Origin: an uncultured Massilimicrobiota sp.
GTDB lineage: Bacteria; Bacillota_I; Bacilli_A; Erysipelotrichales; Coprobacillaceae
Length of the DNA stretch: 64,000 nt
Direction of reading: 5' to 3'
Assembly: GCA_944325245.1 (NCBI GenBank)
Contig: CALUZM010000002.1
Coordinates: 5,082-69,081, forward strand
In this document: piece by piece, positions 2 through 48,484 of the stretch
How positions within the stretch are numbered: the stretch's first letter is position 1
Layout: every line of letters starts with the position of its first letter
Notes under the pieces: generated by a model
What the model was told of the DNA's origin: nothing
Seen by the model: only the letters and a program-made list of their open reading frames with translations
Database searches by the model: none
Program-made: the position numbers and the translations under genes

Positions 2-1666
2 GAATACAGAATGGTCAACAACGCACCATTGCAGGCATGGTTAAAAATCATTAAAGTGGATCAAGATGGACAAAAAATATCTTTATCTCATGCAACATTT
101 AAGTTGAAGGATAGTCAGGGAAATTATGTCAAACAAAAAGTTGGCATGATTTATAAGGATGAATGGACAACAGATGAAAAAGGTTATGTTGTTCTTGATA
201 ATATGCTTGAAGCAGGAGAATATACGATTGAAGAACTGAAAACTCCTGAAGGATTCCTTATTGGAGATGATATCAAAGTCAATATTTCTTCTGACAATAA
301 GGATATCATTTTTGATGAGGATCATCAGCCAGTCATTGAAGTTTCTTTTGTTGATGAAAAACCAACAGGACATCTGATTTTACATAAGGAATTTGAAAGA
401 GAGGAAGATACAGCTGTTGGCGGAGCACAGTTCAAGGTCACTGCTGATAGTGATATTGTTAATCCAGCAACAGGAAAAATGATTTATCATACAGGTGATA
501 TAGTCAGTATAGGCAATGCAACTGATGGTATCTATATGATTGATGAAAGTGGAAAACTGGAATTAACAGGTTTACCACTTGGAATAACTGGTGCCAGATA
601 CAAGGTTGAAGAGATTTCAACAGTGGATGGATATGTACTTTTAGATGAACCAGTTATCTTTGAATTTGATATCAAAGACAATACAACAAAGGAATATACA
701 GTGGAAAAGACAATTGAAAATAAATTAACAGAAACTTATTTCTCTAAACAGGATTTAAATGGTACAGAACTCAAAGGTGGAGAATATTCTGTCATTGATG
801 CGGAAAGTGACGAAATTATTGAACAATGGACAAGCGATGGAAGAACTCATTTGATTAAGGGGCTTGTTATTGGAAAAGATTATATCTATCGTGAAGATTT
901 GACACCACTTGGATATACTTATGCAAAAGATGTGAAGTTTACAATGTCAGAAAATAAACAGACAATTGTGATGAAAGATACACAGGTGGCTATCAATAAA
1001 TTAGATGAATCAGGAAATGTGGTTAAGGGAGCTATATTGCAGATTGTTGATGATCAAAAAAATGTGATTAACCAATGGACAACAGATGGCTCAGTTCATT
1101 ATGCTGAGGGGTTGCAAGTTGGAGAAATTTATATGATTGTTGAAATCAAGACTCCAGAAGGATACAAAACAGCTCCATCTGTGACATTCACTGTTGATGG
1201 AGAGCAGGATCTCTCAATAACTATGACAGATCATCGTATTTTGACTGACATTCTTGTTAATAAGATTGACAGCAAGACACATCAGAATATCATGCATAAT
1301 GATTTTGAATTTACCATTTATTCAGATGTTAAATGTCAAAATCCACTAAAGACAGTCAAAGCAGATACAACAAAGGGGACAGCAGTTTTTGAAGATTTAG
1401 AATATGGACAGACAGTCTATGTCAAAGAAACAAAAGCGCCTTTAGGCTATCAGTTATCTGATGAAGTCGTGAAGATTGTAATTGATGATCAGCTTGAAGG
1501 TATTGGGGATGTTTATAGCATAGAGTATGAAAATACAAGAATGCCTGTCAAAGTTGTACAAACAGATGATAATACGGCTATGATGGATGCATTTGTATTC
1601 GTTGGTGGTAGCTCTTTGTTGATTGCTGTTATGGCATATAGAATGAAGAAAAAGAAAGATGAATAG
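2..1666 (+). CDS. 5'-truncated cell-surface protein with tandem SpaA/Cna-B-like isopeptide domains and a C-terminal sortase-type anchor
   Basis: Frame is open from base 2, so the gene starts upstream of the window. Repeated E-box-like motifs (YTIEELKTPEGF, YMIVEIKTPEGY, YVKETKAPLGY), repeated WTTDG/WTSDG, and C-terminal VQTDD + hydrophobic helix + KKKK tail. Confidence 0.85.
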   Translation, partial: EYRMVNNAPLQAWLKIIKVDQDGQKISLSHATFKLKDSQGNYVKQKVGMIYKDEWTTDEKGYVVLDNMLEAGEYTIEELKTPEGFLIGDDIKVNISSDNKDIIFDEDHQPVIEVSFVDEKPTGHLILHKEFEREEDTAVGGAQFKVTADSDIVNPATGKMIYHTGDIVSIGNATDGIYMIDESGKLELTGLPLGITGARYKVEEISTVDGYVLLDEPVIFEFDIKDNTTKEYTVEKTIENKLTETYFSKQDLNGTELKGGEYSVIDAESDEIIEQWTSDGRTHLIKGLVIGKDYIYREDLTPLGYTYAKDVKFTMSENKQTIVMKDTQVAINKLDESGNVVKGAILQIVDDQKNVINQWTTDGSVHYAEGLQVGEIYMIVEIKTPEGYKTAPSVTFTVDGEQDLSITMTDHRILTDILVNKIDSKTHQNIMHNDFEFTIYSDVKCQNPLKTVKADTTKGTAVFEDLEYGQTVYVKETKAPLGYQLSDEVVKIVIDDQLEGIGDVYSIEYENTRMPVKVVQTDDNTAMMDAFVFVGGSSLLIAVMAYRMKKKKDE

Positions 1667-3117: not shown

Positions 3118-3249
3118 TTTCTTATCCTCCCTTAATTCATCTTTATTATAGCATTTATTTATAAAAAAACTAGAGAAAAATGTTACGTCCATCAATAAAC
3201 ACTATAAAAAAGGTTTGTATTTTTTCTAAAAAAGAATATAATAGATATG

Positions 3250-3330
3250 AGCCAGGGGCGCATTTGCTGAGAAAGGTGAAAGCCTTGTCCCTTATGATCT
3301 GAACTGGGTAATGCCAGCGTAGAGAGTGCA
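3250..3330 (+). ncRNA. TPP (THI-box) riboswitch
   Basis: GGGG..GCTGAGA..CCCTT..GATCTGAACTGGGTAATGCCAGCGTAG core, followed by a terminator hairpin at about 3347-3378 and a thiamine transporter gene. Confidence 0.92.
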
Positions 3331-3407
3331 AATAATGTTTTTTGTGACTTTTTTACGTGGGTAGAAAAGTCTTTTTTATTTGTGGCTTGAATGAAAGGAG
3401 AAGAGTT

Positions 3408-7766: not shown

Positions 7767-7809
7767 AGTATTGAAATTTCATCAAAAAGATGGTAATAAT
7801 ATTTATAAA

Positions 7810-8032
7810 GTTATGATTTGAGAACACCTTATAAACATGTTTAAAAGCGACTTTTGGATGGTGAAAGCAAAAGAAACATATATAATGTGGAACACTCAAT
7901 GAACTGGATAGGAGAAATGTGAGTAGACTATCCCGCAAGACTGCGTTATGGTAAGAGAGCATGATCGTCAGATGATGAATGAGGATGGTACCGCGATATT
8001 TCAAGTCGTTCCTTTAAGGAATGACTTTTTTT
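7810..8032 (+). ncRNA. T-box leader (Asn specifier AAC at 7891-7893)
   Basis: Stem I TTGAG..CTCAA with GGTGAAA loop, specifier AAC, T-box GAGGATGGTACCGCG, terminator AAGTCGTTCC-TTTAA-GGAATGACTTTTTT; upstream of asnS. Confidence 0.88.
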
Positions 8033-8049: not shown

Positions 8050-9435
8050 ATGTTTGAGTTTATGACTGTAAGAGAATTATATGAAATGGTGTTAGCTGGA
8101 GAAGCCATGGAAACAGAAAGCCTGGAATATGTGGAATTAGATGGTTGGGTACGTACAAATCGTGATAATGGTAAAGTTGGTTTTATTGCATTAAATGATG
8201 GAACGTATTTTAGAAACTGTCAGATTGTATATTTACAGGAAAATTTATCTAATTATGATGAAGTAAAACATATCAGCACAGGAAGTGCTATACGTGTATT
8301 AGGAAAATTTAAATTGACACCTGATGCGAAACAGCCATTTGAAATTGAAGCAACCCAAGTTGTTGTAGAAGGTGCCTGTGACGATGATTTCCCATTACAA
8401 AAGAAGAGACACTCTTTTGAATATATGCGTGAAATCCCACATCTTCGTCCTCGTGCCAATACATTTTATGCGATTTTTAGATTAAGAAGTGTCTTGTCTA
8501 TGGCTATTCATGAATTTTTCCAGTCACAAGGATTCGTTTATGTTCATACACCTATTATTACAAGTAATGATGGTGAAGGTGCTGGCGAAATGTTTAGAGC
8601 CACAACAATTGATGATACAAATTTTGATAAAGATTTCTTTGGTAAAGAAGCTTTCTTAACAGTTACAGGACAGCTTCATGTTGAAGCTTTCTGTATGGCA
8701 TTTAGAGATGTCTATACATTTGGACCTGCTTTTAGAGCTGAAAATTCTAATACTTCACGTCATGCAAGTGAGTTTTGGATGATTGAACCAGAAATTGCTT
8801 TTGCCGATTTGGAAGATGATATGGATTTGATTGAAGACATGGTTAAATATTGTATTGATTACGTTTTAGAAAATGCACCTGAGGAAATGAAATTCTTTGA
8901 ACAGATGATTGATAAAGATTGTATTCAAAGAATTACACATGTCAAAAATAGTGAATTTAAACGTATGACTTATACTGAAGCTATTGAAATTCTTGAAAAA
9001 GCAGATGTTAAATTTGAGAATAAAGTTGAATGGGGTATGGATTTAAATAGTGAACATGAACGTTATATTTGTGAACAGATTGTTGGTGGACCAGTGTTCC
9101 TAACAGATTATCCAAAAGAAATCAAAGCCTTTTATATGCGTTTAAATGATGATGGAAAAACAGTGGCTGCATGTGATTTACTGGTTCCAGGTATTGGGGA
9201 ACTTGTTGGAGGAAGCCAACGTGAAGAAAGATATGAAGTTCTTGAAAAAATTATGGATGAAAAACAAATGTCTAAAGAAGGACTTCAATGGTATATGGAT
9301 TTAAGAAGATTTGGTGGATGTAAACATGCTGGTTTTGGTTTAGGATTTGATCGTTTCTTGATGTATTTAACTGGTATGCAAAACATTAGAGATGTTGAAC
9401 CATTCCCAAGAACACCAAGAAATTTAAAATTTTAA
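8050..9435 (+). CDS. asnS: Asparagine--tRNA ligase
   Basis: [78 protein letters not shown]. Confidence 0.97.
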
Positions 9436-9463
9436 AATATAACGGAAAACCGTTATATTTTTT
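9436..9463 (+). terminator. Intrinsic terminator after asnS
   Basis: AAATATAACGG-AAAA-CCGTTATATTT followed by Ts. Confidence 0.75.
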
Positions 9464-9516
9464 CATATTCATTCATTTTATTTTGTAGTATAATGAAAAC
9501 ACGAGGTGAAAAAATA

Positions 9517-11001
9517 GTGAATGAAATCATCTTTATCAATACTTTTTTCAATATTGTTTTTCGTAATGAATTAGCTTATATGCGAGATTTTATGATATCT
9601 TATCAATATATGCAAAATTTTATCCAATGGCTGGATAAACGTCAGATAGAATGTCCTGTTTTATGCTCTATTACTGAAGACGAATATGCTTTTTTATCTC
9701 GTTTGATGAAAGCAGAAGATGTTGACCATGTTTTGCATAAGCCTTTTTCTATAGAAATGGAAAACTTGGCACGGGAATATGAAGATGCAACACATATCTT
9801 ATATGTCCCTGGATTTCAAGAAGTCTCAAATGATTTTTTAGAAACAAATTCTTATAATCATATATATTTTTATCATATTCCAGGATATTTTCATCGCAGT
9901 GATCTGTCTTTCTTTGATCCTTTTCCTGCTTTTTTCTGTGCTTTACGTCATGTTGATTTATGGCCTGGATGTTTAATTTTTAAGGGACAGCAAGCTGTTT
10001 TTGCACCCATCCATAAGCAGGAAGATATGAAACAATTGTTTCATTATATTGAACAAGAAGTCAATCTTTTTGAAGTCTATAATAATTACTATCAAAGTGA
10101 TGCGTATTTTATTCAATTGAGTGATTTACATTTAGGAAAGGATAAACGTCAAAGGGGGCTCACGCGTCTTTATGCATCTTTGGATGAATTGATTCCGAGA
10201 TTACCATCTCCATGGCCTATTCAGATTTTGATTACAGGAGATTTGATGGAATCACCTAATCGAAAAAATATGTATATGGCGAATGATTTTATGAACAGTC
10301 TTAAAAAAAGATATAAAGCGAATGTGACTTTTATTTTGGGAAATCATGATGTTATTGTGCATGGCTTTAACTTTGCCAGAAACCAAAAAAGTAAGGTTAT
10401 CGCTTATCTGTTAGGAGAGAATATTAAAGTTCTGGAACAGGAGAAAATTATTATTATTAAGATGGATACAACCAGTGAAGGGAATCTGGCTAGAGGAAAA
10501 GTTGGAGAAAGACAATTGGCAGAAATTGATGATGAATTATCAGCAATTGACCATATTGAAGATTATACTTTACTGCTTATGCTGCATCATCATGTTTATC
10601 CAATTAACAAAGCAGAGTTTATTAAGACAAAATGGCATGAAAAAACATTTATCAATCGTATCATTGAAACTTCAAAGGTTTTAGTGGATGCACCATTATT
10701 GATTGATTGGATTCAAAAAAGACATATTCATTATGTTTTTCATGGACATAAACATCTTCCGTTTTTTAGAAAAGAAGATGATTGTTACTATATAGGAGCA
10801 GGTAGTGCAACTGGAGGATTGAAAGAAAGTCGCAGTCGTTATATTTCTTATAATATTATGAAATATGATATGCGTGAGAAAAAAATGAAAATCTGTATGA
10901 TTTTTTATGATGATAAAGCCAAAGCAGAAAGGCAGCGTGTTGAAGTTTATTTATTTGAAGGAGGAAATAATCATGAAACTTGTGGATCGCATGAAGGATG
11001 A
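9517..11001 (+). CDS. Calcineurin-like metallophosphoesterase (Icc/CpdA-type) with an unrecognised ~195-aa N-terminal domain
   Basis: All five motifs present: SDLHLG, TGDL, GNHD, HHH, GHKH. GTG start at 9517 behind GAGGTG and a TATAAT at 9489-9494. Confidence 0.85.
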   Translation: MNEIIFINTFFNIVFRNELAYMRDFMISYQYMQNFIQWLDKRQIECPVLCSITEDEYAFLSRLMKAEDVDHVLHKPFSIEMENLAREYEDATHILYVPGFQEVSNDFLETNSYNHIYFYHIPGYFHRSDLSFFDPFPAFFCALRHVDLWPGCLIFKGQQAVFAPIHKQEDMKQLFHYIEQEVNLFEVYNNYYQSDAYFIQLSDLHLGKDKRQRGLTRLYASLDELIPRLPSPWPIQILITGDLMESPNRKNMYMANDFMNSLKKRYKANVTFILGNHDVIVHGFNFARNQKSKVIAYLLGENIKVLEQEKIIIIKMDTTSEGNLARGKVGERQLAEIDDELSAIDHIEDYTLLLMLHHHVYPINKAEFIKTKWHEKTFINRIIETSKVLVDAPLLIDWIQKRHIHYVFHGHKHLPFFRKEDDCYYIGAGSATGGLKESRSRYISYNIMKYDMREKKMKICMIFYDDKAKAERQRVEVYLFEGGNNHETCGSHEG

Positions 11002-12364
11002 AGAATTAGGAACAGCTTTACTTTATAATTTTACAAAAGGTTATGGACAACCTGTTCCTATAGAACTTTATGATGTGGTTTTACCACTTCTTTATAATGA
11101 TTTTATAAGAGAACATATTTTATCTTTAACATCACTTCAGGAATGTATATATCAAGGTGTACAAAAAGATGAACATTTTAAACAACATATCTTAGAAGAT
11201 ATTGAAAATGATAAGACAATGACTTCAAAAGCTTTAGGTGTAGCTATGATTCAACGTATTTTAAAGTTTGAAATTGTTGATACAACTATGTGTGGCGTGG
11301 CTTTACCAACAGATATTTTAGATTTAAATGAAGCTATTCAATTAGGAAAGATGTTTCAAAATGTATCCTTGGAAGATTTTATGACTTTACTTCGTCAAGA
11401 AGATGTTCATATTGTTGTTTTACAGAGTGCTTCTGTTGGAAAGGATATAGATTTATCTCAAATTTGTTCGTTAGGACAAGTGACGATGTATGAAGATACC
11501 AAGCCTTCAGAAATAAGAGGACGTATCTTAGGAGCAGATATTGTCATTACCAATAAAAATCAAATGACAAAAGAAGTTCTGGAAGGTTTAAACCGTTTGA
11601 AATTGATATGTCTGTTTGCAACAGGAACAAATAATGTTGATTTAACATATTGTCGAGAACATGGTATTAAAGTTGCAAATGTTAAAGATTATTCAACAAC
11701 AACTGTGGCTCAACATACATTGGCTTTATTAATGCATTTGGTTGAAAAAAATGTAGCTTATGATCATTTTGTGAAATCAAAAGAGTACGCAAGAAGTGAA
11801 CGTTTTAGCTATTTTGATGATGTTTTCCACGATGTGTCATCTATGACATGGGGAATTGTTGGATTGGGTCATATTGGTCGACAGGTTGCAGGTATTGCGA
11901 CTGCTATGGGGGCTAAAGTGCAATATTATTCAACAAGTGGAAAAAATGCAACAAGTGATTATCAGCAGGTAGATTTTGATACTTTATTAAAAACATCTGA
12001 TATCATCACGATTCATGCACCGTTAAATGATCAGACACATTATTTATTTAATGAAGAAGCTTTAAGAAAAATGAAAAAGACAGCTTATCTGATTAATGTT
12101 GGACGCGGTGGCATTATTGAAGAAAAAGCTCTTGTTAAGGTATTAAATGAAGGACATCTATCAGGTGTTGGTTTAGATGTTTTTGAACATGAACCATTAT
12201 TAGAAGATGATGTGATTTATCAGATTCAAGATATGGATAAAGTGATTTTAACACCACATATTGCATGGGGATCTATTGAAGCTAGACAAAGATGTGTCAA
12301 TGAAGTTTATCAAAATATTTTGGCTTTTCTTAAAGGTGAAGATCGCAGTATTGTCAATCTATAA
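10973..12364 (+). CDS. Fusion: ~140-aa N-terminal domain (ABC-3C middle-component/DUF6521-like) + D-isomer-specific 2-hydroxyacid dehydrogenase (glycerate dehydrogenase-like)
   Basis: The C-terminal ~320 aa carry ATGTNNVDL, GIVGLGHIG, HAPLNDQT, INVGRGG, DVFEHEP, TPHIAWGS. The N-terminal domain is in frame and there is no Met at the junction. ATG 10973 has an AAGGAGG RBS and overlaps the upstream gene. Confidence 0.8.
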   Translation: MKLVDRMKDEELGTALLYNFTKGYGQPVPIELYDVVLPLLYNDFIREHILSLTSLQECIYQGVQKDEHFKQHILEDIENDKTMTSKALGVAMIQRILKFEIVDTTMCGVALPTDILDLNEAIQLGKMFQNVSLEDFMTLLRQEDVHIVVLQSASVGKDIDLSQICSLGQVTMYEDTKPSEIRGRILGADIVITNKNQMTKEVLEGLNRLKLICLFATGTNNVDLTYCREHGIKVANVKDYSTTTVAQHTLALLMHLVEKNVAYDHFVKSKEYARSERFSYFDDVFHDVSSMTWGIVGLGHIGRQVAGIATAMGAKVQYYSTSGKNATSDYQQVDFDTLLKTSDIITIHAPLNDQTHYLFNEEALRKMKKTAYLINVGRGGIIEEKALVKVLNEGHLSGVGLDVFEHEPLLEDDVIYQIQDMDKVILTPHIAWGSIEARQRCVNEVYQNILAFLKGEDRSIVNL

Positions 12365-12379
12365 GAAATGGTGTATGAT
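12351..12379 (+). promoter_or_regulatory. Sigma-A-type promoter for the FolT-like gene
   Basis: TTGTCA-N17-TATGAT, implying a leader of about 120 nt. Confidence 0.55.
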
Positions 12380-12509
12380 AGAAAAAATATAAAAAGAAGG
12401 AGGAGTCTACGTCAGTAGCAAAGCATGTACGGTCATCAGATCGGAATTAACGCCTGTGGACTAGAAATGAGGACGAAGCAGGAAAATTTGTTATCAGTAG
12501 CATAGTGTT

Positions 12510-13325
12510 ATGGAACAATTGATTATTGCAATAGTGATTATTGCCTTAGGTTTTTATGTGTTTAAGTTTTATCCTTTTGAAAAAGGAAATGTTATGAAAC
12601 TGGTTATTGGAGCCATTTTCATTATTTTAACGGCTATCTGTAAAAGATTAGCTATTATGATTCCATTATTTGGAGCAGAGAGTCTTAAGATTGGATTTGA
12701 ATATATTCCTTTAATGTTAGCAGGATATTTTTTATCACCCAGTTATGCCTTTGTAGTTGGTTTATGTAGTGATGTGATTGGTTTGATTTTGGTTCCTACT
12801 GGATTTCCATTTTTTGGATTTACTTTAGGAACAATTCTTGTCAGTGTTATTCCTTCACTGATTCGTGAACATTCTAAAAAAATCAGTCCACAGAATGTAC
12901 TACGTATTGTTGTGGGGTTGATTTTTGTTTTAGGGATAGGGGCTTCTATTTATATTGGACAGCTTGATTCCATAAGTATTTCAGAAACGACTTATCAGTT
13001 ACATTTTCAACAAAAAATCACATTGATTTCTTTGTGTTTATTATTGATGATGATATTTATTGTCATCATTTATATCATTAAACATAGGATTAATGTACAG
13101 GAAGCCAAAACTTTTTCAACATGGATATTATGTGTAGTTGCGACAGAAATTGTTGTCACACTTTGTTTAACACCATTATGGCTGGATATGATGTATCACA
13201 TTCCTTGGACAATTTCACTATGTATAAGAGTTGTGAAAGAATGTGCTGTATTACCAATTGAGATATTTATAGGATATTGTTTAATACCTCTCATACAAAG
13301 AATATGGATACGTTTAGAAAAATAA
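12510..13325 (+). CDS. ECF transporter S component, folate (FolT)-family-like, elongated
   Basis: LKIGFEYIPLMLAG..LSP..A..VG..SD.IG.....GFPFFGFTL pattern and C-terminal LTPLWL..MY...W.....IRV.KE typical of FolT-type S components. Confidence 0.75.
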   Translation: MEQLIIAIVIIALGFYVFKFYPFEKGNVMKLVIGAIFIILTAICKRLAIMIPLFGAESLKIGFEYIPLMLAGYFLSPSYAFVVGLCSDVIGLILVPTGFPFFGFTLGTILVSVIPSLIREHSKKISPQNVLRIVVGLIFVLGIGASIYIGQLDSISISETTYQLHFQQKITLISLCLLLMMIFIVIIYIIKHRINVQEAKTFSTWILCVVATEIVVTLCLTPLWLDMMYHIPWTISLCIRVVKECAVLPIEIFIGYCLIPLIQRIWIRLEK

Positions 13326-13380
13326 TACATTTTTTATGGCTTGTTTAGTAAATTGACACGCATTAAAAATAGAATATATA

Positions 13381-13421
13381 TCAAAAGCAACAAGAATATT
13401 AAGATTCCTGTTGCTTTTTGA
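13381..13421. terminator. Bidirectional terminator between the FolT-like gene and a small convergent ORF
   Basis: AAAAGCAACAAGAAT-ATTAAG-ATTCCTGTTGCTTTT. Confidence 0.7.
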
Positions 13422-13500
13422 TTTCATGACCATCTTCATCAACTTCAATAACTTCAAAAAAATATTCAAAAATACGAGTTAAAAGATTTTTTATTTTCAA
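13399..13500 (-). CDS. Small 33-aa protein MKIKNLLTRIFEYFFEVIEVDEDGHEIKKQQES (not in the ORF track)
   Basis: TTG start 9 nt after GAAAGGGA; stop lies in the terminator loop; divergent from spoVA. Confidence 0.55.
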   Translation of the reverse strand: MKIKNLLTRIFEYFFEVIEVDEDGHEIKKQQES

Positions 13501-13596
13501 TATTTTTCATCCCTTTCATTTATAGTTTATGTTTTTATGAAAAAAATCATGTTTGAAATATAAAAAAATGTAAACACTATGTAAGAGGTGAAAAAG

Positions 13597-19476: not shown

Positions 19477-20283
19477 ATGTCTTATATTTATGCAATATCA
19501 GATATTCATGGTAGATATGATTTGTTAGAAGAAATGGTAAGAGAACGCCTACATTTTGAAATAGGAGATGTTCTTGTCTTATTAGGTGATTATGTGGATG
19601 GAGGAGATTCCTATACAACACTTGAAAAGATTTATCAGCTTCAAAAATTATATCCGCAACAGGTTATTGTACTGATGGGAAATCATGAAGAATGGCTATT
19701 ATCATTTTTACGAAATCGTCCAAGTCGTCTGTCAGTTCAGATACAGCAGAATTTTCAGACTTTAGAAAGTTTTATTGGGGAAGAAGAATTCACACGCATC
19801 TATCAACACTCAGCGCAACATTATCAGGAGCGTTATTCTCTTTTGGAAGATATGTATCAACAATGTCGAAAGCAAATTTGTCAAAAGTATGGTTATCTGA
19901 TTGAATGGCTGGAAAAACTGCCATATTATTATGAAAGTGCCTATCAACAGATATTTGTCCATGCAGGAATTGAGGTTGTTTTGGGATTTGAGGAGGCATG
20001 GAAAGATCTTTCTGATGAGAATATTTTTTGTATGAAGTATCCGCCAGAAAAGGGGAGTTTCTATAAAACAGTGATTGCTGGACATGTGGGAACACATCAG
20101 ATAGTCAATGATCCTACATTTCATCGTATTTGTCGCCTAGGAGACTTTATATATCTGGATTCTTCAGTTGCTCAGAGTCAGCATTTAAATTTACTGGCAT
20201 TTCATTGTCAAACATATCAATATCAAGGATGGATTAAAGAGAAGGGGCAGTGGATCAGTTATGATATTCCGTCTTTATTGTAA
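19477..20283 (+). CDS. Metallophosphoesterase (bacterial Ser/Thr phosphatase PrpA/ApaH-like)
   Basis: AISDIHG, GDYVDGG, MGNHE, FVHAGI, IAGH, LDS. Confidence 0.85.
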   Translation: MSYIYAISDIHGRYDLLEEMVRERLHFEIGDVLVLLGDYVDGGDSYTTLEKIYQLQKLYPQQVIVLMGNHEEWLLSFLRNRPSRLSVQIQQNFQTLESFIGEEEFTRIYQHSAQHYQERYSLLEDMYQQCRKQICQKYGYLIEWLEKLPYYYESAYQQIFVHAGIEVVLGFEEAWKDLSDENIFCMKYPPEKGSFYKTVIAGHVGTHQIVNDPTFHRICRLGDFIYLDSSVAQSQHLNLLAFHCQTYQYQGWIKEKGQWISYDIPSLL

Positions 20284-32146: not shown

Positions 32147-32171
32147 ATAGCAGTAAATGAAAAGTAGTGGA

Positions 32172-32280
32172 AAGAAGAAGTGCCTACTTCTCGCCTGAGT
32201 GTCAAGGATGCTAGGCTTATGTCACTAAGATTAATATCTTAATGTCAATTTGTGGGTGCTTTATGTACTCACTTTTTATT
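32172..32280 (+). ncRNA. L20 leader (ribosomal protein autoregulatory leader)
   Basis: GAAGTGCCTACTTCTCGCCTGA..TGTGGGTGC..ACTCACTTTTT resembles the Bacillus infC leader (GAAGCACCCGCTTCTCACCTGA..GTGGGTG); upstream of infC. Confidence 0.8.
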
Positions 32281-32311
32281 TAAACTACACAATTTATAGG
32301 AGGTGTCTATT

Positions 32312-39604: not shown

Positions 39605-39654
39605 GAAAAGATTTGCAAAATAATAAAGATATGATATAATATCTTGTGTTTAGA

Positions 39655-39870
39655 ATCGATGAAAAGGAGTAGTAGTTGTTGATACTTTTTAGAGAGTCTA
39701 TGGGTGGTGAAAATAGACAGGTTAGGCAATGAACTCGCCTTGGAGATACAAAGATGAAAAGAGTAGTTTTTGTCGTTAACTGCGTTAAAGTTTTGAGAGC
39801 ATATATGGATGTCATATATGAACTAAGGTGGTATCGCGATCAAGTCGTCCTTAGAGGGGCGACTTTTTAT
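39655..39870 (+). ncRNA. T-box leader (Leu specifier CTC at 39734-39736)
   Basis: AGTA box, AGAGA bulge, GGTGAAA loop, GAA-CTC specifier, AACTAAGGTGGTATCGCG, terminator AAGTCGTCC..GGGGCGACTTTTT. Confidence 0.9.
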
Positions 39871-48321: not shown

Positions 48322-48350
48322 TAGACAAAACTACAGACGTTTGTTACAAT
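48322..48350 (+). promoter_or_regulatory. Sigma-A promoter upstream of the purine riboswitch
   Basis: TAGACA ... TACAAT, about 17 nt apart. Confidence 0.6.
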
Positions 48351-48357
48351 AGGCGTG

Positions 48358-48428
48358 GTTATCATATATGTCTGGGAATTGGCTCAGTCGTTTCTACCCC
48401 GTTACCGTAAATAATGGGACTATGATAG
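48358..48428 (+). ncRNA. Purine riboswitch, guanine/hypoxanthine type (discriminator C at 48420)
   Basis: TCATA-TAT-P2(L2 GAATTGG)-GTTTCTAC-P3(L3 CCGTAAA)-GAC-TATGA; terminator GTCTATC-GCAG-GATAGAC-TTTTTTT at about 48442-48467. Confidence 0.92.
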
Positions 48429-48484
48429 ATGCTTTTGATGTGTCTATCGCAGGATAGACTTTTTTTATTGGAGGAGGGACTATA

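What the first reader, a model, noticed from the sequence alone, without database searches (positions are those of the whole stretch)
10973..11400. N-terminal ~140-aa domain resembling ABC-3C middle component 3 (DUF6521-like) fused in frame to a D-2-hydroxyacid dehydrogenase
Seen: GTALLYNFTKGYGQPVPIELYDVVLPLLY..FIREHI..TSL..TSKALGVAM..IL..AIQLGKMF..LL, then directly VHIVVLQSASVGKDIDLS, which matches the usual start of glycerate-dehydrogenase-like enzymes but has no Met or RBS. From recalled consensus, LL..F.KGY....P..L...VLPL...R, T..AL..A...LL and A..LG..F...LL are the signature blocks of the MC3/DUF6521 family. I know of no described fusion of this domain to a metabolic enzyme. The family match is by eye only.
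Basis: partly seen in the sequence, partly recalled or inferred. Interest (0 to 1): 0.75.

Follow-up and report, generated by a model that had tools for sequence, protein, structure and literature searches.

The report
Lamassu LmuC domain fused to dehydrogenase
A small adaptor domain so far reported only in the Lamassu anti-phage system (LmuC) is permanently fused to an ordinary-looking NAD-dependent dehydrogenase and paired with a phosphoesterase gene across a group of gut bacteria, with no Lamassu sensor gene nearby, so a defence part seems to have been re-used in a new two-enzyme module.

Summary
ORF 10973-12364 (463 aa, good RBS) has three parts. Residues 1-142 form an LmuC/MC3 domain: Pfam PF20131 scores above its cutoff, and an AlphaFold model (pLDDT 90.8) has solved LmuC chains as its only real PDB matches (TM 0.70-0.75). 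A 3-residue link follows. Residues 146-463 are a complete, catalytically intact D-2-hydroxyacid dehydrogenase (NCBIfam NF006263) with no start codon of its own.

The fusion is neither an artefact nor strain-specific. The identical protein lies on 19 independent contigs. 29 species-representative genomes of Erysipelotrichales (Massilimicrobiota, Longibaculum, Coprobacillus, Faecalibacillus, Thomasclavelia and others) all encode it, 28 as complete 457-466 aa ORFs and one cut by a contig end. Both halves are under purifying selection. Wherever upstream sequence exists it follows a ~490-aa metallophosphoesterase gene, with one divergent exception. That gene's stop lies within -29 to +15 nt of the fusion's start, usually in a housekeeping neighbourhood after asnS. 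No LmuB/SMC gene is adjacent or anywhere in the window.

The nearest standalone relatives sit in canonical LmuA-LmuC-LmuB operons. The phosphoesterase is distantly related to the anti-phage DS-9A enzyme.

Best reading: an exapted Lamassu adaptor that docks the phosphoesterase onto the dehydrogenase dimer. The binding and the physiological role are inferred, not shown.

The parts
9434..9461 (+). Terminator-like hairpin right after asnS. It suggests the phosphoesterase/fusion pair is a transcription unit separate from asnS.
   Evidence: Pattern scan only: 12 pairs, 3 of them G-C, followed by a T run. Weak evidence.
9493..11001 (+). Metallophosphoesterase (MPE) gene, 502 aa; the conserved upstream partner of the fusion.
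   Evidence: Pfam Metallophos E 4.5e-10. All five metallophosphoesterase motifs are invariant in 52 orthologues: D211-x-H213, G249-D250, G283-N-H-D286, H365-367, G418-H-x-H421. The gene lies directly upstream in 28 of 29 species loci; the other locus has no upstream sequence.
9493..10092 (+). N-terminal ~200-aa orphan domain of the MPE: a helical bundle (residues 4-97) followed by a small beta/alpha unit with a conserved D-P-F...W-P-G patch.
   Evidence: AlphaFold secondary structure. No Pfam hit in 52 members, no PDB sequence hit, no hhalign match to LmuA CTD7 proteins. It is the fastest-evolving part of the cassette, with dN/dS 0.08-0.31.
10099..10953 (+). Catalytic metallophosphoesterase domain (residues ~203-487).
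   Evidence: Foldseek top hits are GpdQ, Rv0805 and SMPDL3A-type phosphodiesterases; Mre11/SbcD rank lower. The profile hits Mre11/SbcD over motifs I-III at E about 1e-6. hhalign to a DS-9A-like plasmid protein gives probability 98.4% and E 7e-15. dN/dS 0.02-0.06.
10960..10964 (+). Shine-Dalgarno sequence (GGAGG) of the fusion gene, lying inside the 3' end of the MPE gene.
   Evidence: Read directly. A GGAG-type motif stands at the same place in 31 loci.
10973..11001 (+). 29-nt overlap of the MPE stop region with the fusion's start; a translational-coupling arrangement.
   Evidence: The distance from the MPE stop to the fusion ATG is -29 to +15 nt in 31 loci.
10973..12364 (+). Fusion ORF, 463 aa: LmuC/MC3-like domain plus D-2-hydroxyacid dehydrogenase.
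10973..11398 (+). LmuC (MC3)-like domain, residues 1-142.
   Evidence: Pfam PF20131. The orthologue profile's best PDB sequence hit is LmuC 9hqu_D over its full length, at only E 0.023. Fold matches three solved LmuC chains. dN/dS 0.07-0.28. Acidic, pI 4.3-6.4, whereas three standalone LmuC relatives have pI 8.8-9.8.
11399..11407 (+). Three-residue junction (Q-E-D) between the last helix of the LmuC-like domain and the first strand of the dehydrogenase. It has no start codon and no RBS.
   Evidence: last helix 133-141; dehydrogenase model starts at residue 146.
11408..12361 (+). D-isomer-specific 2-hydroxyacid dehydrogenase, residues 146-463. The NAD-binding domain is residues 250-431 (11720-12265).
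   Evidence: Pfam 2-Hacid_dh_C E 5.6e-54 and 2-Hacid_dh E 1e-27. NCBIfam NF006263 scores 394.9 bits against a cutoff of 389. G297-x-G299-x-x-G302, R378, E407 and H429 are invariant in 29 sequences. Closest solved structure is 5tx7, E 5.7e-54.

Best explanation
The cassette is an exapted, SMC-less descendant of a short (type II) Lamassu-like module. Shown: the N-terminal 142 residues are a true LmuC/MC3-fold domain joined by a 3-residue link to a catalytically intact D-2-hydroxyacid dehydrogenase. The fusion is old, mostly at one chromosomal position and under purifying selection. It is almost always translationally coupled to an active-looking metallophosphoesterase. No LmuB gene accompanies it. 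Inferred: the LmuC-like domain keeps the one job it has in Lamassu, gluing an enzyme subunit to a dimeric scaffold, but here the scaffold is the dehydrogenase dimer instead of the LmuB dimer. In this enzyme family the N-termini sit on the substrate-binding domains at the outer ends of the dimer (established structural knowledge, not tested here). Each LmuC-like domain could therefore hold one phosphoesterase, giving an (MPE : LmuC-DH)2 complex made in 1:1 amounts through coupled translation. The short rigid link could pass the substrate- and NAD(H)-dependent closure of the dehydrogenase on to the bound phosphoesterase, or the two enzymes could act in succession on a phosphorylated hydroxy-acid. 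The DNA contact that LmuC makes in Lamassu has probably been lost, because the domain has become acidic. I lean slightly towards a core regulatory or metabolic role rather than classical phage defence, because the locus sits at a fixed housekeeping position.
For: LmuC identity rests. The nearest standalone relatives (P0297, P0299) lie in LmuA(CTD7)-LmuC(MC3)-LmuB operons, and the third gene of L050 matches solved LmuB at E 1e-152. In Lamassu, LmuC contacts the C-terminal domain of LmuA, the LmuB coiled coils and head, and DNA (bioRxiv 10.1101/2025.03.14.643221 read; 10.1101/2025.06.23.660979). The fusion is conserved in 29 of 29 species loci and in more divergent lineages with 46-55% G+C. The MPE is adjacent in 28 of 29 species loci, the other lacking upstream sequence, and also in L048, L049 and L011. 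The stop-to-start distance is -29 to +15 nt with the RBS inside the MPE gene. dN/dS is 0.07-0.28 for MC3, 0.05-0.18 for the dehydrogenase and 0.02-0.06 for the MPE catalytic domain. Catalytic residues of both enzymes are invariant. With asnS divergence and the dehydrogenase held constant, MC3 divergence tracks MPE catalytic-domain divergence (partial r 0.55). With asnS and MC3 held constant, dehydrogenase divergence does so too (partial r 0.63). MC3 against the dehydrogenase, with asnS and both MPE segments held constant, is about 0 (weak evidence). The lineage without an adjacent MPE (L047) has the most degenerate LmuC-like domain. No SMC/LmuB-like ORF lies in the 64-kb window. Metatranscriptome contigs run across the junction.
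Against: No direct evidence shows that the LmuC-like domain binds the MPE; no complex could be modelled. The MPE has no recognisable LmuA-type C-terminal docking domain, and its domain order differs from LmuA: an orphan domain first, the enzyme last. The MPE N-terminal domain does not co-vary with MC3 (74% against 97% identity in one Faecalibacillus pair). One lineage keeps the fusion without an adjacent MPE. An LmuB gene elsewhere in these genomes was not excluded. Substrates of both enzymes are unknown. Rate correlations among neighbouring genes can arise without physical contact.
Confidence: 0.5

Rival explanations
1. The cassette is still an anti-phage system: a Lamassu derivative without LmuB, or a DS-9-like two-enzyme system. 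The metallophosphoesterase would be the effector. The LmuC-dehydrogenase would hold it in check and release or activate it when infection perturbs NAD(H) or a 2-oxo/2-hydroxy acid.
For: The nearest characterised relatives of both genes are defence proteins. The N-terminal domain matches LmuC. The MPE's best NCBIfam family is DS9_1 'anti-phage phosphoesterase' at E 5e-20, and hhalign gives probability 98.4% to a Klebsiella plasmid MPE that overlaps a HAD hydrolase gene inside a restriction/Hachiman island. DS-9 is an experimentally validated two-gene system of a metallophosphatase plus a second small-molecule enzyme (PMC13092281). The two non-catalytic domains evolve fast; the MPE N-terminal domain is only 18-28% identical between genera whose asnS is about 87% identical. 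One species pair hints at allelic exchange in it.
Against: The locus keeps one housekeeping position (tsaEBD-rimI-rex-asnS upstream) in most of the genera sampled and is not in a defence island. PADLOC finds nothing for the fusion and only a marginal hit for the MPE. The DS9_1 score is 71.8 bits against a cutoff of 420, and the second gene is not a HAD. No dN/dS value approaches 1.
Confidence: 0.25
2. The LmuC-like domain works only in cis on the dehydrogenase, for example as an oligomerisation, localisation or ligand-binding module. The phosphoesterase would then be merely an operon neighbour.
For: A divergent lineage (L047) keeps the fusion without any MPE within 9.2 kb. The MPE has no detectable LmuA docking domain. 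Other members of this dehydrogenase family carry regulatory add-on domains (general knowledge).
Against: The coupled MPE is adjacent in 31 loci, at -29 to +15 nt. MC3 divergence follows MPE divergence rather than dehydrogenase divergence once the other segments are held constant. In L047 the LmuC-like domain has lost most of the family's invariant residues, as expected if its partner is gone.
Confidence: 0.17
3. The fusion is a neutral scar. A deletion removed LmuB and joined the end of lmuC to the neighbouring dehydrogenase gene, and the N-terminal domain is dead weight.
For: The order MPE - LmuC - (missing LmuB) mimics a Lamassu operon whose third gene has been lost. The junction has no linker.
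Against: The reading frame is intact in all 28 complete ORFs of the 29 species loci. Twenty residues of the domain are invariant and dN/dS is 0.07-0.28, across lineages whose genomes range from 28 to 55% G+C. The AlphaFold model is confident. The only split allele is a recent single-base change.
Confidence: 0.03

Closest known systems
LmuC / DdmB, the MC3-type 'middle component' of short (type II) Lamassu / ABC-3C systems (Pfam PF20131; PDB 9hqu_D, 9uxh_D, 9ny5_C)
   Same: Same Pfam family and same fold over the whole ~145-residue domain. It is encoded directly after, and coupled to, a gene for an enzyme.
   Different: It is not a free 160-aa protein but the N-terminus of a 463-aa enzyme. No LmuB follows. 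The upstream protein has no CTD7. The domain is acidic instead of basic. The locus is at a fixed core-genome position, not in a defence island.
DS-9 (DefensePredictor): metallophosphatase DS-9A plus a HAD phosphatase, a validated two-gene anti-phage system
   Same: A ~500-aa protein with a ~200-aa N-terminal region followed by a metallophosphatase domain. The next gene overlaps it and encodes a second small-molecule enzyme. The metallophosphatase domains are homologous.
   Different: The relationship is remote (71.8 bits against a cutoff of 420). The N-terminal regions do not align. The second gene is an LmuC-dehydrogenase, not a HAD. The genomic context differs.
D-isomer-specific 2-hydroxyacid dehydrogenases (NCBIfam NF006263/PRK08410; glycerate dehydrogenase / glyoxylate-hydroxypyruvate reductase type; PDB 5tx7)
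   Same: Residues 146-463 are a full-length member with all cofactor and catalytic residues.
   Different: It has no initiator Met of its own and carries an N-terminal protein-interaction domain from a defence system. As far as I know, add-on domains in this family are C-terminal and unrelated to LmuC (for example ACT in SerA).
SbcD/Mre11 (metallophosphoesterase nuclease with a C-terminal Rad50/SbcC-binding domain) and MC1-type 'long' LmuC
   Same: The order 'metallophosphoesterase, then an LmuC-type module' recalls SbcD, whose C-terminal region is proposed to be the ancestor of long LmuC (bioRxiv 10.1101/2025.04.02.646746). The MPE profile's best PDB sequence hits are Mre11/SbcD over motifs I-III.
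   Different: The domain here is MC3 (short type), not MC1. By structure the MPE is closer to GpdQ/Rv0805/SMPDL3A phosphodiesterases. There is no SbcC/Rad50 partner. The resemblance may be coincidental.

Membership tests
Pfam PF20131 MC3 / LmuC | Sequence match to the family profile at or above the gathering score | tested here: met
   27.1 bits against a cutoff of 23.2 for residues 1-145 alone, and 22.7 bits within the full protein. 24 of 25 orthologues match, best E 1.2e-9.
Pfam PF20131 MC3 / LmuC | LmuC fold as seen in solved Lamassu complexes | tested here: met
   The AF2 model (pLDDT 90.8) matches 9hqu_D, 9uxh_D and 9ny5_C at TMq 0.70-0.75 and probability 1.0. The next hit has TM 0.19.
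Pfam PF20131 MC3 / LmuC | Small free-standing protein encoded between lmuA and lmuB | tested here: not met
   It is fused to a 318-residue dehydrogenase in all 29 species loci, and no lmuB follows.
Pfam PF20131 MC3 / LmuC | Basic surface that contacts DNA (R59/K62/K72 in Salmonella LmuC) | tested here: inconclusive
   The aligned positions are S51/S54/C58 in a weak alignment. The domain's pI is 4.3-6.4, against 8.8-9.8 in three standalone relatives. This suggests loss, but the alignment is not reliable at residue level.
Lamassu / ABC-3C system | SMC-like ABC ATPase LmuB in the operon | tested here: not met
   None lies beside the cassette in any locus. None is found among the ten long ORFs of the 64-kb window that were scanned, including all of at least 500 aa. 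The rest of the genome was not searched.
Lamassu / ABC-3C system | LmuA effector with a C-terminal docking domain (CTD7 pairs with MC3) | tested here: not met
   No CTD family hit in 52 MPE orthologues at E <= 1. hhalign against two CTD7 LmuA proteins gives probability 0.2%. A structural comparison of the MPE N-terminal domain alone could not be run.
Lamassu / ABC-3C system | Patchy, mobile, defence-island distribution | tested here: not met
   The synteny tsaE-tsaB-rimI-tsaD-rex-asnS-MPE-fusion recurs in most loci, across genera and G+C contents.
D-isomer-specific 2-hydroxyacid dehydrogenase (PF00389 + PF02826; NF006263) | Both domains present above curated cutoffs | tested here: met
   182.6 and 96.9 bits in Pfam. 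NF006263 scores 394.9 bits against 389, covering model positions 2-310 of 311.
D-isomer-specific 2-hydroxyacid dehydrogenase (PF00389 + PF02826; NF006263) | GxGxxG NAD motif and the Arg/Glu/His catalytic residues | tested here: met
   G297/G299/G302, R378, E407 and H429 are invariant in 29 fusions.
D-isomer-specific 2-hydroxyacid dehydrogenase (PF00389 + PF02826; NF006263) | NAD(P)H-dependent 2-oxoacid reduction; substrate identity | not testable with these tools
   Needs an enzyme assay.
DS-9 anti-phage system (NCBIfam NF053862 DS9_1) | Equivalog-level match of the phosphoesterase | tested here: not met
   71.8 bits against a cutoff of 420. Homology is confined to the metallophosphatase domain.
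DS-9 anti-phage system (NCBIfam NF053862 DS9_1) | Second gene encodes a HAD phosphatase | tested here: not met
   The second gene is the LmuC-dehydrogenase. hhalign of the MC3 profile against the plasmid HAD protein gives probability 0.2%.

The most novel reading that the evidence does not exclude
A core-genome, SMC-less offshoot of Lamassu in which an NAD-dependent dehydrogenase has replaced LmuB as the sensor and scaffold. The LmuC-like domain sequesters a DS-9-like phosphoesterase effector on the dehydrogenase dimer. A shift in NAD(H) or 2-oxoacid state, for example on phage infection, releases or activates it. This would be an immune or stress switch that reads metabolism rather than DNA ends.
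Probability: 0.2. Interest if true: 0.85.

Novelty: new variant of a known kind. Interest (0 to 1): 0.62.

Why it matters
LmuC is the least understood Lamassu subunit. A 2025 evolutionary study reported no LmuC homologues outside Lamassu. This clade is a counter-example: LmuC domains have been kept under selection for a long time without LmuB, welded to a soluble and easily assayed enzyme, and paired with a phosphoesterase related to a validated anti-phage enzyme.

That gives a simple system for asking what an LmuC domain binds and how it transmits a signal. It documents the re-use of a defence adaptor in a core two-enzyme module. Alternatively, if the cassette still defends, it points to a Lamassu-derived system that works without an SMC sensor.

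It also corrects annotation: more than a hundred protein clusters named plain 'D-2-hydroxyacid dehydrogenase' carry an unremarked extra domain. The carriers include human- and animal-gut genera (Thomasclavelia, Faecalibacillus, Coprobacillus).

Tried and rejected
- PADLOC models gave nothing for the fusion or its N-terminal domain, and only a marginal PDC-S10 hit for the MPE.
- I looked for an LmuA-type docking domain in the MPE. Pfam on 52 orthologues at E <= 1 found none. hhalign against two CTD7 LmuA proteins found none. A PDB sequence search with an N-terminal-domain profile returned only a chance hit to arginine kinase.
- Foldseek of the full MPE model is dominated by metallophosphatase hits. 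No LmuA chain appears in the 50 rows shown.
- The B. subtilis YydB-YydD model 9a6c_B appeared as a structural hit. A link to Lamassu could not be confirmed: no paper was found, and LmuB of L050 does not hit YydD. The lead was dropped.
- tblastn of the MPE against plasmids found only distant metallophosphatase-domain matches, none with an LmuC or LmuB neighbour.
- Krishnan et al. 2020 (PMC7544218) is not held. I therefore could not check whether its 'double-Rossmann dehydrogenase' LmuA effector, cited, is related. I suspect it is the flavin-monooxygenase type, but that is a recollection only.
- The spacer 12365-12509 was tested as a possible riboswitch. There is no Rfam match at E <= 1 and the folding z-score is 0.46.
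- The idea that the long ORF from ATG 10907 is the gene was rejected, because orthologues start at the MKLVD Met behind a conserved RBS.
Full report
**What is there.** The + strand encodes a 463-aa protein from ATG 10973 to the stop at 12362-12364. GGAGG lies 8 nt upstream of the start. The mechanical ORF list extends it to an ATG at 10907, but every orthologue begins MK[LI]VD behind a conserved RBS, so 10973 is the start. The gene overlaps the last 29 nt of a 502-aa gene at 9493-11001. The dehydrogenase part starts at V146 (11408) with no in-frame start codon and no RBS.

**The N-terminal domain is an LmuC/MC3 domain.**
- Alone, residues 1-145 hit Pfam PF20131 (ABC-3C middle component 3) at E 3.3e-6 and 27.1 bits, above the 23.2-bit cutoff. 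Within the full protein the score is 22.7 bits.
- 24 of 25 orthologous domains from other species hit the same family and nothing else, best E 1.2e-9.
- A profile of the orthologues finds LmuC of Salmonella (9hqu_D) as the best PDB sequence, aligned end to end, though at only E 0.023.
- An AlphaFold2 model of residues 1-145 is confident (pLDDT 90.8, pTM 0.86).
- Its only significant PDB matches are the LmuC chains of three independent Lamassu structures: 9hqu_D, 9uxh_D and 9ny5_C, with TMq 0.70-0.75 and probability 1.0. The fourth hit has TM 0.19.
- V. cholerae LmuC (DdmB) is the MC3 type and pairs with LmuA domain CTD7 (bioRxiv 10.1101/2025.06.23.660979).

**The C-terminal part is a complete, active-looking dehydrogenase.** Pfam 2-Hacid_dh_C scores E 5.6e-54 and 2-Hacid_dh E 1e-27. 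NCBIfam NF006263 'D-2-hydroxyacid dehydrogenase' scores 394.9 bits against a cutoff of 389 and covers model positions 2-310 of 311 from residue 146. Only the initiator Met is replaced by the fusion. G297-x-G299-x-x-G302, R378, E407 and H429 are invariant in 29 fusions. The closest solved structure is 5tx7.

**The fusion is real, old and selected.**
- The identical 463-aa protein is called on 19 contigs from independent metagenomes, always in the same context.
- Contigs from two chicken-gut DNA runs cover the junction with at most one difference, and a metatranscriptome contig spans 11350-11500.
- More than 120 clusters at 90% identity hold full-length fusions of about 460 aa.
- A scan of one genome per GTDB species returned 29 loci in Erysipelotrichales, by NCBI's families Coprobacillaceae and Erysipelotrichaceae. 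The genera are Massilimicrobiota (the window's genus, 83-85% identity), Longibaculum, Stoquefichus, Coprobacillus, Faecalibacillus, Thomasclavelia and Fimiplasma.
- 28 of the 29 encode an uninterrupted 457-466 aa fusion; the other ORF (L026) is intact but cut by the contig end.
- An exhaustive profile search of 1.84 billion representative proteins found only 49 hits. The full-length ones are fusions of 440-463 aa.
- These include lineages with 46% and 55% G+C, the latter keeping the same synteny.
- dN/dS in unsaturated pairs is 0.07-0.28 for the LmuC-like domain and 0.05-0.18 for the dehydrogenase.
- The only 'two separate ORFs' form is a Faecalibacillus allele widespread in metagenomes. It differs from the fused reference genomes by one A in an A9 run (A8 gives MC3 of 148 aa plus a 298-aa dehydrogenase). 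Two isolate runs and two RNA-type runs carry A9. It is a derived frameshift, not an ancestral two-gene state.

**Context.** Directly upstream lies a ~490-aa metallophosphoesterase (MPE).
- It is present in 28 of 29 species loci; the other has no upstream sequence. It is also present in L011, L048 and L049.
- Its stop is -29 to +15 nt from the fusion's ATG, and the RBS is embedded in its 3' end.
- All five metallophosphoesterase motifs are invariant, and its catalytic domain is as constrained as asnS (dN/dS 0.02-0.06).
- Its first ~200 residues form an orphan domain with no Pfam, PDB-sequence or LmuA-CTD7 match. This is the fastest-evolving part of the cassette.
- By structure the catalytic domain resembles GpdQ, Rv0805 and SMPDL3A phosphodiesterases. 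By profile its best PDB sequence hits are Mre11/SbcD over motifs I-III.
- Its best NCBIfam family is DS9_1 'anti-phage phosphoesterase' at E 5e-20, far below that family's cutoff.
- A Klebsiella plasmid homologue overlaps a HAD hydrolase gene inside a restriction/Hachiman island, and aligns at hhalign probability 98.4% over the enzyme domain only. DS-9 is a validated two-gene defence system (PMC13092281).
- The neighbourhood is housekeeping: ackA, thiT, tsaE, tsaB, rimI, tsaD, rex and a T-box-controlled asnS upstream, with scpAB and spoVA downstream.
- No SMC/LmuB-like gene lies beside the cassette in any locus. None is among the ten long ORFs of the window that I scanned, which include every ORF of at least 500 aa; the only ABC proteins there are membrane exporters.

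**Relation to true Lamassu.** The first standalone proteins in the exhaustive search are 157-165 aa long (E 3e-5 to 4e-4). Two were looked up, and both sit in LmuA(CTD7)-LmuC(MC3)-LmuB operons, one next to a Gabija-like pair. The third gene of one operon matches solved LmuB at E 1e-152. No intermediate form was found, such as an MPE with a free LmuC and an LmuB.

In Lamassu, LmuC sits centrally. It glues the C-terminal domain of LmuA to the LmuB coiled coils and head, and it contacts DNA through basic residues (bioRxiv 10.1101/2025.03.14.643221). The fused domains are acidic (pI 4.3-6.4), whereas the three standalone relatives are basic (pI 8.8-9.8). This suggests the DNA contact has been lost.

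**Mechanism.**
- Shown: the domain identities, the intact catalytic sites, the coupling of the two genes, the absence of an adjacent LmuB, and purifying selection on every part.
- Inferred: the LmuC-like domain still acts as a protein-protein adaptor and docks the co-translated MPE onto the dehydrogenase dimer, which takes the place of the LmuB dimer.
- The 3-residue link to the first strand of the substrate-binding domain makes mechanical coupling to domain closure plausible.

Weak support comes from rate correlations. With asnS and the dehydrogenase held constant, LmuC-domain divergence tracks MPE catalytic-domain divergence (partial r 0.55). With asnS and MC3 held constant, dehydrogenase divergence does so too (partial r 0.63). 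The LmuC domain and the dehydrogenase are uncorrelated once asnS and both MPE segments are held constant. Further support comes from the one lineage lacking an MPE (L047), whose LmuC-like domain is the most degenerate.

Against the model, no interface was modelled, no LmuA-like docking domain is detectable, and the MPE N-terminal domain does not co-vary with MC3.

Whether the complex serves metabolism or regulation (my slight preference, because of the fixed core position) or is still an immune module cannot be decided here. The case for the immune reading is that both genes have their closest characterised relatives in defence systems and that the non-catalytic domains evolve fast. A neutral deletion scar is effectively excluded.

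**Novelty.** Three paper searches found nothing describing an LmuC-enzyme fusion or an LmuB-less LmuC. A 2025 preprint explicitly recovered no LmuC homologues outside Lamassu. Databases already carry the Pfam MC3 hit on many of these proteins, but they are named only 'D-2-hydroxyacid dehydrogenase'. The primary ABC-3C paper could not be read. I therefore rate this a new variant of a known kind: a known domain family in a new architecture, partnership and genomic setting.

**Limits.** Whole genomes were not searched for LmuB. How many species of the order carry the cassette is unknown, because the locus scan used two peptide patterns. Binding, substrates and phenotype are untested.

Noticed in passing
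L011 8417-8424 (also L013, L015) versus L029 10417-10425, L027, L030: A Faecalibacillus allele found in many metagenome assemblies (77 index blocks) has A8 instead of A9 at the MC3/dehydrogenase junction. It splits the fusion into a 148-aa LmuC-like protein and a 298-aa N-terminally truncated dehydrogenase. Reference genomes, two isolate runs and two RNA-type runs carry A9. The run (A AAA AAA AG) is a slippery sequence, so phase variation or frameshifting or transcriptional slippage is conceivable but untested.
   Followed up: partly
L027 and L029, MPE gene N-terminal 600 nt (L027 5282-5881; L029 8551-9150): Between two closely related Faecalibacillus species the MPE N-terminal domain is only 74% identical (dS 0.56). 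The adjacent LmuC-like domain is 97% (dS 0.17) and asnS 99% (dS 0.18). This hints at allelic exchange or diversification confined to that orphan domain.
   Followed up: partly
L047 1615-3878: The most divergent LmuC-dehydrogenase fusion (440 aa, 28.5% G+C contig) has no metallophosphoesterase within 9.2 kb. It is followed, with abutting stop and start, by a GFO_IDH_MocA oxidoreductase. Its LmuC-like domain has lost most of the family's invariant residues.
   Followed up: partly
window 13326-13587, compared with L001/L004/L005/L007 10368-13333: Strain-level indel. Some contigs carrying the identical fusion protein have an HTH_6/SIS regulator and a 639-aa Oxidored_FMN/Pyr_redox enzyme inserted between the ECF S-component gene and spoVAC. 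The window, L002 and L003 lack them.
   Followed up: no
window 12510-13325: A 271-aa membrane protein with weak, sub-threshold matches to ECF-transporter S components (ECF-ribofla_trS at 25.5 bits against a cutoff of 26.7). It follows the fusion in the Massilimicrobiota/Longibaculum/Coprobacillus group and in the 55% G+C lineage, but not in Faecalibacillus or Thomasclavelia. The 145-nt leader (12365-12509) has no Rfam match and no unusual fold.
   Followed up: partly
window 7804-8016, 39650-39855, 3244-3343, 32166-32286, 48342-48442: Rfam matches at gathering score: T-box leaders before asnS and before a leucyl-tRNA synthetase gene, a TPP riboswitch, an L20 leader and a purine riboswitch. All are ordinary.
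   Followed up: no
window 19477-20283: A second, small (268-aa) metallophosphoesterase gene directly after scpA/scpB, conserved at that place in related contigs (L002, L003). It is unrelated in length and architecture to the 502-aa MPE.
   Followed up: no
L028 (CAVESC010000087.1): This contig is labelled 'Bacteroidaceae bacterium', but it carries the Erysipelotrichales cassette with a Faecalibacillus-like asnS (87% identity to the window). It is probably a mis-binned contig in that MAG.
   Followed up: no
window 11-1666: A 551-aa ORF made of five SpaA/prealbumin-like repeats (Pfam PF17802, E 1.7e-57), typical of Gram-positive surface adhesins or pilins. It may be truncated by the window start.
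   Followed up: no
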